The position numbers and the translations under genes are program-made. Below the pieces are notes generated by a model. The model was given only the letters and a program-made list of their open reading frames with translations, was not told the DNA's origin and made no database searches. This document shows, piece after piece, positions 14,425 to 14,935 of a stretch of DNA of 64,000 nucleotides. Positions within the stretch are counted from its first letter, which is position 1; each line of letters opens with the position of its first letter. Source of the DNA: Octopus sinensis (Eukaryota); contig NC_043012.1 of assembly GCF_006345805.1 (NCBI RefSeq), positions 930,001 through 994,000 on the forward strand, in the 5' to 3' direction.

Positions 14425-14935
14425 GGACACAAAACTCTGCTTGTGAAGACCTGTTGAGGCAAGTGAAATTGAAATCAAATCAAATTTGCAAATTTGATGA
14501 CTGGCATCTATGCCATAGGAGCGCTAAGAGCATCGTCCGAGCATGATCGCTGCCAGAGCAGCTGACTGGCTTCCGTGCTGGTGGCACATAAAAAGCACCA
14601 TTCAAACGTGATCGTTACCAGCGTTGCCATACTGGCACATGAAAAACAACATTCGAGTGAGATCATTGCAAGTGCTGCTGGACTGGCTCCTGTGCAGGTG
14701 GCACATAAAAAACACCACTTGAGTGTGGCCATTGCCAGTACTGCCTGACTGGCCCTTGTGCCGGTGGCACGTAAAATCACCCACTACACTCTTGGAGTGG
14801 TTGGCATTAGGAAGGGCATCCAGCTGTAGAAACTCTGCCAGATCGGACTGGAGCCTGGTGCAGCTATCTGGTTCGCCAGTCCCCAATCAAATCGTCCAAC
14901 CCATGCTAGCATGGAAAGCGGACGTTAAATGATGT
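14425..14935 (+). mobile_element. RTE-LINE 3' end (family C) with five tandem structured 3' UTR units
   Basis: Starts with ORF-end-like TGCTTGTGAAGACC...GCAAGTGA; repeats of GTGCnGGTGGCAC-TAAAAA-CACC at 14574, 14691 and 14757 plus two degenerate units; ends CCATGCTAGCATGGAAAGCGGACGTTAAATGATG. Confidence 0.8.

What the first reader, a model, noticed from the sequence alone, without database searches (positions are those of the whole stretch)
14500..14935. Tandem array of compact H-type pseudoknots plus hairpins in an RTE LINE 3' UTR
Seen: a 26-nt motif CGTGC-N-GGTG-GCACG-TAAAAAG-CACC recurs every ~60-67 nt, with 1-5 units per copy (14574, 14691, 14757; 21299, 21362; 23653, 23716; 42695; 46456; several in 55828-56040). 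It can fold as stem 1 CGUGC/GCACG, a 1-nt loop 1, stem 2 GGUG/CACC and an A-rich loop 3. The loop-1 base takes all four values (C at 23653/21362/14757, U at 14574/42695, A at 14691/21299/46456, G at 23716) while its neighbours are largely fixed, which favours the pseudoknot over a simple GUGCC/GGCAC hairpin. Spacers keep a second stem with variable loops (GAAGCCAGT/ACTGGCTTC, TGCCAG/CTGGCA, GCCAGT/ACTGGC). Three copies (14425, 24190, 42941) place the array right after an RTE ORF-end-like sequence (..VLEK..). Established: this topology resembles compact viral pseudoknots with A-minor loop-stem contacts. Inference: an amplified, selected RNA module for stability, RT binding, nuclease blocking or catalysis. 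I do not recognise it as described, but cannot rule that out.
Basis: partly seen in the sequence, partly recalled or inferred. Interest (0 to 1): 0.8.

Follow-up and report, generated by a model that had tools for sequence, protein, structure and literature searches.

The report
Repeated pseudoknot-like module in octopus retrotransposon
A very abundant jumping gene in this probably octopus genome carries one to nine copies of a 26-letter motif in its untranslated tail; the motif could fold into a compact RNA pseudoknot that likely helps the element's RNA bind protein, but neither the fold nor the function is shown.

Summary
The array is real. It lies in the 3' UTR of a young, very high-copy RTE-type LINE (endonuclease-RT-PHD ORF of about 1,059 aa) with 31,351 exact motif matches in the genome. 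The unit is kept across subfamilies whose spacers differ, and an older family repeats the bare 26-nt unit. It has no Rfam match, and 90 loci of relatives in other organisms lack it. The pseudoknot is plausible but unproven. Among 40 unit classes, only two core columns show all four bases, and both are unpaired in a luteovirus-like redrawing: 4+4 bp, 2-nt loop 1, 1-nt bridge. Against it, stem 2 shows no compensatory change. Stem 1's fifth pair shows no covariation genome-wide (711 T-A against about 690 expected). One internal unit type has lost stem 2, and a 6-bp hairpin competes with the fold. An apparent pile-up of 5' truncations at the unit failed a pre-registered test (3 of 41), so cleavage or nuclease blocking has no support. 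Best reading: a redundant, weakly selected RNA handle multiplied by RT slippage, analogous to the R2 3' UTR pseudoknot. A second motif downstream may be another pseudoknot, sitting at the 5' end in a relative.

The parts
14418..14938 (+). 5'-truncated copy of the RTE-type LINE, 3' UTR only, ending in a short (TGA)n tail
   Evidence: boundary call, self-BLAST of the window, comparison with full-length copies
14425..14466 (+). UTR block resembling the ORF end; it lies downstream of the true stop codon in full-length copies
14509..14535 (+). diverged 5'-most unit (type D1); stem 1 slid by one base, loop still 5 nt
   Evidence: 25 copies sorted to this type; this copy listed
14552..14570 (+). spacer hairpin GCCAG...CTGGC
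   Evidence: sequence
14574..14599 (+). pseudoknot-like unit 1 (loop-1 T, probably CpG decay of C)
   Evidence: class majority C
14617..14653 (+). spacer hairpin fused to a unit remnant by a deletion between two TGGCAC repeats; this unit type also lacks CACC
14668..14716 (+). spacer hairpin (14668-14687) and unit 2 (14691-14716, loop-1 A)
14734..14781 (+). spacer hairpin (14734-14753) and unit 3 (14757-14781, loop-1 C)
14787..14799 (+). short hairpin CACTC-TTG-GAGTG
   Evidence: sequence; predicted only
14799..14839 (+). second conserved motif (GGAAGGGCATCC ... TGCC), a candidate second H-type pseudoknot, also found in distant relatives
   Evidence: 72,380 genome matches
14893..14934 (+). terminal stem-loop CGTCC/GGACG enclosing CCATGC/GCATGG, then TTAAA and (TGA)n; likely RT recognition site
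   Evidence: fold of the same part in L010, z -2.1; similar stem-loop in relatives L061 and L149
21141..21450 (-). another truncated copy with units at 21362 and 21299
23647..23915 (+). another truncated copy with units at 23653 and 23716
42680..42920 (+). another copy; unit at 42695 plus a fused (deleted) unit
46299..46481 (-). copy truncated at its last unit (46456)
55671..56045 (-). copy of the same subfamily group as the finding, with four unit positions

Best explanation
The 26-nt unit lies, in one to nine copies, in the 3' UTR of a very high-copy RTE-type LINE; it is predicted to fold as a compact H-type pseudoknot that likely serves as a redundant protein-binding handle on the element's RNA, upstream of the terminal stem-loop where reverse transcription would start. 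The fold that best fits the variation has stem 1 CGUG/CACG, a 2-nt loop 1, stem 2 GGUG/CACC, a 1-nt bridge that pairs with loop 1 only when it is G, and an A-rich 6-7-nt loop lying in the stem-1 minor groove (inferred). Copy number changes by RT or replication slippage between short repeats (deletions shown, mechanism inferred). Selection on master elements keeps the core but is weak, because units back each other up (inferred). The binding partner is most likely the element's own ORF protein, by analogy with R2 (untested).
For: Shown: UTR position behind an intact APE-RT-PHD ORF. Core kept across 48 unit classes defined by flanks alone, while columns just outside show 3-4 states. In 40 internal classes only loop-1 base 2 (C30 T5 A4 G1) and the bridge (G35 A3 C1 T1) take four states; 15 of the 16 paired columns take at most two. 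An older family repeats the bare 26-nt unit with G->C at the bridge, moving one pair from stem 1 to stem 2 at equal stacking energy (-21.0 kcal/mol both). Type D1 slides stem 1 by one base and keeps five pairs and a 5-nt loop. Geometry background is about 5e-5 per position. Precedent: A-clade R2 proteins bind a 3' UTR pseudoknot-hinge-stem, with disrupt-and-rescue shown (PMC11601368, passages).
Against: Stem 2: 0 of 4 pairs with a two-sided change in 32 representatives, and its departures are all unpaired cells. Pair 5 genome-wide: T-A 711, C.A 5,641, T.G 5,594; about 690-1,000 T-A are expected with no coupling. Stem-1 pair 1 changes are CpG-type and include 5 unpaired of 32. After 540 spacer-anchored cores, 60 lack CACC, about half of them one fixed unit type. 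Type D2 breaks stem 2. For loop-1 C units a 6-bp hairpin of -8.6 to -9.0 kcal/mol is within error of the pseudoknot (about -10 to -11 with recalled loop penalties). Units were detected by core similarity, which inflates apparent core conservation. Relatives in other organisms manage with short UTRs and no unit. The same UTR duplicates other blocks of about 36 and 98 nt as well. No binding or probing data exist here.
Confidence: 0.4

Rival explanations
1. No pseudoknot: the unit is a simple stem-1 hairpin plus a single-stranded sequence motif (A-run, CACC) kept for protein recognition.
For: The nested MFE of a canonical unit is the 6-bp hairpin (87% of the ensemble). Units that lost CACC keep stem 1. 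Stem 2 has no covariation.
Against: Loop-1 A/G units and the thousands of C.A and C.C pair-5 units would be left with a 4-5-bp hairpin. For one loop-1 A unit no nested fold near the minimum contained stem 1. GGTG and CACC are both nearly invariant and complementary.
Confidence: 0.25
2. Neutral by-product: a self-complementary stretch in a duplication-prone UTR was multiplied by slippage and homogenised by conversion, with no function.
For: Other UTR blocks and 605-nt 5' monomers are also tandemly duplicated. Unit number varies from 1 to 9; 5'-most units decay; 24 deletion events were seen beside 175 intact units. Relatives lack the unit.
Against: Old and young families share the core but not the spacer. 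Variation in the spacer is confined mostly to the loop, with one two-sided stem change (L186 class). Every subfamily keeps a complete last unit.
Confidence: 0.2
3. A different pseudoknot register: GUGC(N) pairs with the second GCAC (after the A-run), and upstream CACC/CC pairs with GGUG/GG.
For: Diverged D-type units keep GTGCT and AGCAC and vary the middle; a flanking pair reads T-A, T.G and C-G in D1, D3 and D2. One subfamily has GTGT with ACAC. Last units and the old family have upstream CACC.
Against: Internal units offer only about two upstream pairs. The first GCACG is nearly invariant yet would be unpaired. Four of the 48 classes have a C.A mismatch in this register.
Confidence: 0.1
4. 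The unit cleaves itself or blocks a 5'-3' exonuclease, producing defined short RNAs.
For: A first look gave 22 of 98 truncations at the 5' edge of stem 1 against 29 of 288 simulated (p=0.003, post hoc).
Against: The pre-registered repeat on new copies gave 3 of 41 (p=0.8); the first set was biased towards intact motifs. No Rfam ribozyme or xrRNA match. Cleavage inside the 3' UTR would separate the ORF from its RT recognition site.
Confidence: 0.05

Closest known systems
A-clade R2 3' UTR pseudoknot-hinge-stem (PMC11601368; passages read)
   Same: A pseudoknot in a non-LTR retrotransposon 3' UTR upstream of a terminal stem; proposed role as protein handle.
   Different: R2 has one pseudoknot within the last 65 nt, 6 nt from the stem, contacted by ZnF3. 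Here the protein is APE-type without those domains, the unit is tandem, and the last one lies about 110 nt upstream of the terminal stem. Binding is untested.
Luteoviral frameshift pseudoknot, PLRV (PMC5416846; passages read)
   Same: About 26 nt, 2-nt loop 1, one bridge nucleotide between the stems, A-rich loop against stem 1.
   Different: Here it is outside any ORF, so it cannot stimulate frameshifting; it is repeated; triples are not shown.
TMV upstream pseudoknot domain (PMC4683447; passages read)
   Same: [quoted passage not shown]
   Different: Viral RNA with three fixed, probed pseudoknots. No sequence relationship was tested. Here copy number varies and hairpins alternate with the units.
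Bipartite RTE derivatives and RTE 5' UTR domains in SINEs (PMC5786205, parts 2-4 of 5 read; PMC7245038, passages)
   Same: The last 140 nt look like a 5'-region motif joined to an RTE 3' end: the GGAAGGGCATCC motif lies near the start of the ORF in relative L149.
   Different: Here it forms the 3' end of an autonomous LINE. The motif was not found in that paper's supplement.
Nin-DC/Deu/Snail SINE domains (PMC4758252 and PMC4824008; passages and supplement hits)
   Same: Snail consensus sequences have CGTG...GCACG followed by TTAAAGATCC; a BivaMD-SINE1 primer reads GCACGTWAAAGAACCC when reversed.
   Different: Only 12-16 nt are alike, the loop is much longer, and that exact word has just 62 matches in this genome. 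Homology is not established.
RTE-2_OV of Octopus vulgaris (PMC9115989; passages)
   Same: RTE-clade LINE with an intact ORF in an octopus.
   Different: Its 3' UTR is described as mostly microsatellite and it has a C2H2 finger, so it appears to be another family; sequences were not compared.

Membership tests
RTE-clade LINE | single long ORF with apurinic endonuclease and RT | tested here: met
   1,056-1,059-aa frames in L281-L284; Pfam RVT_1, Exo_endo_phos_2, PHD
RTE-clade LINE | 3' end in a short tandem repeat, copies 5'-truncated | tested here: met
   (TGA)n tails and scattered 5' ends
RTE-clade LINE | placement in the RTE clade by RT phylogeny | not tested
   no named reference LINEs were at hand; the label RTE rests on architecture and on a recalled C-terminal motif
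H-type pseudoknot (fold) | two interleaved complementary stems with feasible loop lengths | tested here: met
   sequence; background about 5e-5 per position
H-type pseudoknot (fold) | compensatory changes in both stems | tested here: not met
   stem 2: 0 of 4 pairs; pair 5 no excess; stem 2 varies little, so power is low
H-type pseudoknot (fold) | loop-stem triples, protection in probing | not testable with these tools
   needs SHAPE/DMS or NMR
Luteoviral frameshift pseudoknot | position in coding sequence behind a slippery site | tested here: not met
   units begin 160 nt or more after the stop codon
A-clade R2 pseudoknot-hinge-stem | single pseudoknot joined by a 6-nt hinge to the terminal stem | tested here: not met
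   last unit ends at 14781, terminal stem starts at 14893
A-clade R2 pseudoknot-hinge-stem | bound by the element's protein and needed for insertion | not testable with these tools
   no RNA-protein tool or assay
Tobamoviral upstream pseudoknot domain (works-like) | tandem pseudoknots upstream of a terminal structure | tested here: inconclusive
   position fits; folds are only predicted
Tobamoviral upstream pseudoknot domain (works-like) | supports translation or stability in place of poly(A) | not testable with these tools
   no raw RNA reads were served
Self-cleaving ribozymes of LINEs (HDV-like, twister and others) | match to a curated model | tested here: not met
   Rfam: 0 at gathering; two chance hits at E 2.4 and 7.7
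Self-cleaving ribozymes / exonuclease-resistant RNAs | defined RNA 5' ends at the element, read out as a truncation phase in genomic copies | tested here: not met
   3 of 41 in the pre-set bin against 29 of 288 simulated; an indirect test that sees only RNAs copied to their end
Nin-DC/Deu SINE domain | extended similarity to the domain consensus | tested here: inconclusive
   short word only; 62 genome matches; figure alignments and one supplement file could not be read

The most novel reading that the evidence does not exclude
A LINE that ends in (TGA)n rather than poly(A) has built a tunable array of luteovirus-sized pseudoknots in its 3' UTR. The array works as a multivalent binding platform or poly(A) substitute, like the tobamoviral pseudoknot domain, and helped drive the element to about a hundred thousand copies or more. 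Together with the GGAAGGGCATCC motif it would define an unrecognised class of RTE pseudoknots.
Probability: 0.2. Interest if true: 0.7.

Novelty: new variant of a known kind. Interest (0 to 1): 0.38.

Why it matters
How RTE LINEs pick and protect their own RNA is little studied, and pseudoknot recognition is shown for R2 in the papers I saw. A small, modular unit in a young element with intact ORFs makes this directly testable. It also puts tens of thousands of potentially structured modules into this genome. If the unit proves neutral, it is still a clean case of a UTR array built by slippage.

Tried and rejected
Truncation phase as a readout of cleavage, Xrn1 block or RT stop: positive post hoc, failed on 41 new copies, rejected. 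The T-A variant of pair 5 as compensation: looked clean in one class (7 of 7), no excess genome-wide, rejected. The alternative hairpin CCT-GTGC-AGG as the cause of loop-1 A/G: fits most classes but not one with C before it, left open. Rfam: nothing. Unit in relatives: covariance model found 0 in 90 loci, 270,312 bases. Viral contigs: 0 for the protein, the unit and the second motif. Sequencing runs: no RNA holder listed, contigs only; laying four runs showed the same variants in four organism codes and says nothing on expression. MetaSINE or Ceph-domain origin: no matching words in the readable supplements. Nin origin: inconclusive.

Full report
Observation. The genome G000 (2.72 Gb) holds 31,351 exact matches to the 25-mer and none to the reversed control. 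The host is probably an octopus; this is inferred from the nearest named protein, Octopus vulgaris at 83% over 57% of the query. The copy at 14418-14938 has a diverged first unit, three recognisable units (14574, 14691, 14757), one unit damaged by a deletion, a second conserved motif, a terminal stem-loop and a short (TGA)n tail.

The element. A search with the C-terminal 139 aa gave 64,023 candidates; 150 were scored, several with open frames of 1,056-1,059 aa. The protein has endonuclease, RT and PHD matches. In these young copies the units begin 160 nt or more after the stop codon, so the 3' UTR location is shown. Of 330 copies anchored on the downstream motif, 288 had the tail; 207 of these fell into six subfamilies, 2.9-7.0% diverged from their majority. 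The label RTE rests on architecture; I built no tree.

Variation of the unit. Among 588 units, loop-1 T is largely CpG decay, but C, G and A are subfamily states. I grouped 1,092 units by their flanks only; 48 classes of four or more members hold 656 units, and the other 436 were dropped. Genome-wide, the pair that this G was thought to form reads T.G 5,594 times, C.A 5,641 times and T-A 711 times. With about 31,000-46,000 C-G units (scaled by the A-run lengths), 690-1,000 T-A are expected with no coupling. So that pair is not constrained. The better drawing is 4+4 bp with a 2-nt loop 1 and a 1-nt bridge, the layout described for the PLRV pseudoknot (PMC5416846, passages).

For the pseudoknot. 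The freely varying columns are unpaired ones in that drawing. An older family (149 exact matches to its word, some of them point mutants of young units) repeats the bare 26-nt unit and has C at the bridge. That moves one pair from stem 1 to stem 2 at equal stacking energy. The D1 unit slides stem 1 by one base and still has five pairs. The strict geometry arises about 0.014 times per 290 nt in resampled UTRs, though I fixed the geometry after seeing the motif.

Against it. In 32 natural representatives stem 2 has no two-sided change, and its few departures break pairs; the whole-structure measures are only slightly above shuffles, which ignore relatedness. Of 816 spacer-like matches, 480 are followed by a full core, 60 by a core without CACC, 23 by a fused remnant, and 253 by no core (not examined). 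D2 units break stem 2. A 6-bp hairpin of -8.6 to -9.0 kcal/mol competes; the pseudoknot has -21.0 of stacking, less loop penalties of about 10 that I recall and did not compute. A second register, with GUGC on the later GCAC, fits the diverged units about as well. Detection by core similarity inflates core conservation. I put the chance that the pseudoknot forms in the RNA at about one half.

Function. If units cleaved or blocked Xrn1, copies might start at a fixed phase. A first look gave 22 of 98 at the 5' edge of stem 1 against 29 of 288 simulated. I fixed that bin in the notebook and tested new loci: 126 new copies, 73 assigned to the main subfamilies, 41 callable, 3 in the bin. The first peak came from stretches chosen around intact motifs. 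Rfam has no match. Relatives at 30-59% protein identity mostly end shortly after the ORF (output partly cut) and contain no unit (0 in 90 loci), so the unit is not a general need of this family. The UTR duplicates other blocks too. A 15-16-nt deletion between two TGGCAC repeats occurs in 24 of 30 pattern hits, beside 175 intact units, in several subfamilies. This points to slippage as the engine. Retention of the core across families that share no spacer points to some selection. The most likely role is a redundant protein handle upstream of the terminal stem-loop, by analogy with A-clade R2 (PMC11601368, passages). That step is inference. A poly(A)-substitute role like the TMV domain (PMC4683447, passages) is the bolder version.

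Second motif. GGAAGGGCATCC has 72,380 genome matches in its longer form. Its loop GGCA can pair with TGCC after the A-run, kept in 261 of 309 parsed copies (411 examined) while the three bases before it vary. In foreign loci the partner is TGCC (L096, L141/L142, L149) or TGCTC (L148, L149); it is missing at that distance in the commonest foreign family and in L101 and L122. In L149 the motif lies about 200 nt before the endonuclease region (by eye), and it is absent from the 5' region of L283 and L284. The 3' end may therefore derive from a bipartite RTE derivative, a kind described in PMC5786205 (parts 2-4 of 5 read).

Literature. I found no description of the unit. Searches: pseudoknot + RTE + non-LTR + UTR, 5 papers, listings only; the motif words, 3 unrelated papers; a six-term search, 0; non-LTR + pseudoknot + TPRT, 17 papers, mostly R2 and ribozymes, listings only apart from PMC11601368; octopus + RTE, 16. 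The word pseudoknot does not occur in the main text of PMC13282606 or PMC9115989 (passages). PMC4824008: parts 1-2 of 6 and supplement searches. PMC4758252 and PMC7245038: passages. One supplement file each of PMC4824008 and PMC4758252 could not be searched, and figure alignments are not held; they bear on the SINE-domain question. Subscription papers, Repbase and Dfam were not searched, and the element itself may well be in a repeat library.

Verdict. A real, lineage-restricted, heavily amplified 3' UTR module with a credible but unproven compact pseudoknot and no demonstrated function. New variant of a known kind; interest 0.38.

Noticed in passing
window 14799-14839; L149:150-205; L148, L141, L142, L096: The GGAAGGGCATCC motif is shared with distant relatives, sits near the ORF start in L149 but in the 3' UTR here, and could form its own H-type pseudoknot (GGCA with TGCC or TGCTC). 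It may be the better target for cross-species covariation.
   Followed up: partly
L283 (minus strand, upstream of the ORF): The 5' region of one full-length copy carries about four tandem monomers of about 605 nt at 96-98% identity; L284 and L281 have one.
   Followed up: no
L309, L316, L319, L330: An older family has head-to-tail 26-nt units with C at the bridge and no spacer hairpin.
   Followed up: partly
window 14617-14653 and 42738-42770; 22 further loci: Recurrent 15-16-nt deletion between two TGGCAC repeats removes most of a unit, in several subfamilies.
   Followed up: partly
L284:2851-6027: A PHD-finger match follows the RT domain directly; the same architecture occurs in cnidarian and bivalve proteins.
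   Followed up: no
L061, L149 3' ends; window 14893-14934: The terminal stem-loop is kept in relatives at about 45% protein identity, with changed outer and inner stem letters (seen by eye).
   Followed up: no
L093, L107, L117: A repeat in foreign loci has TGCCGGGTGGCAGGTAACA (L117) or GGGTGGCAGGTAAAA (L107), resembling the middle of the unit; the covariance model did not score it.
   Followed up: partly
L006 about 980-1060; L256 downstream of the main copy: Short elements with the second motif and a similar 3' end but no unit.
   Followed up: no
window 28511-29876: Tandem array of a 133-nt unit, 10.3 copies, 94% matches.
   Followed up: no
window 15203-15308: 42-nt tandem repeat, 2.5 copies, just downstream of the finding.
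   Followed up: no
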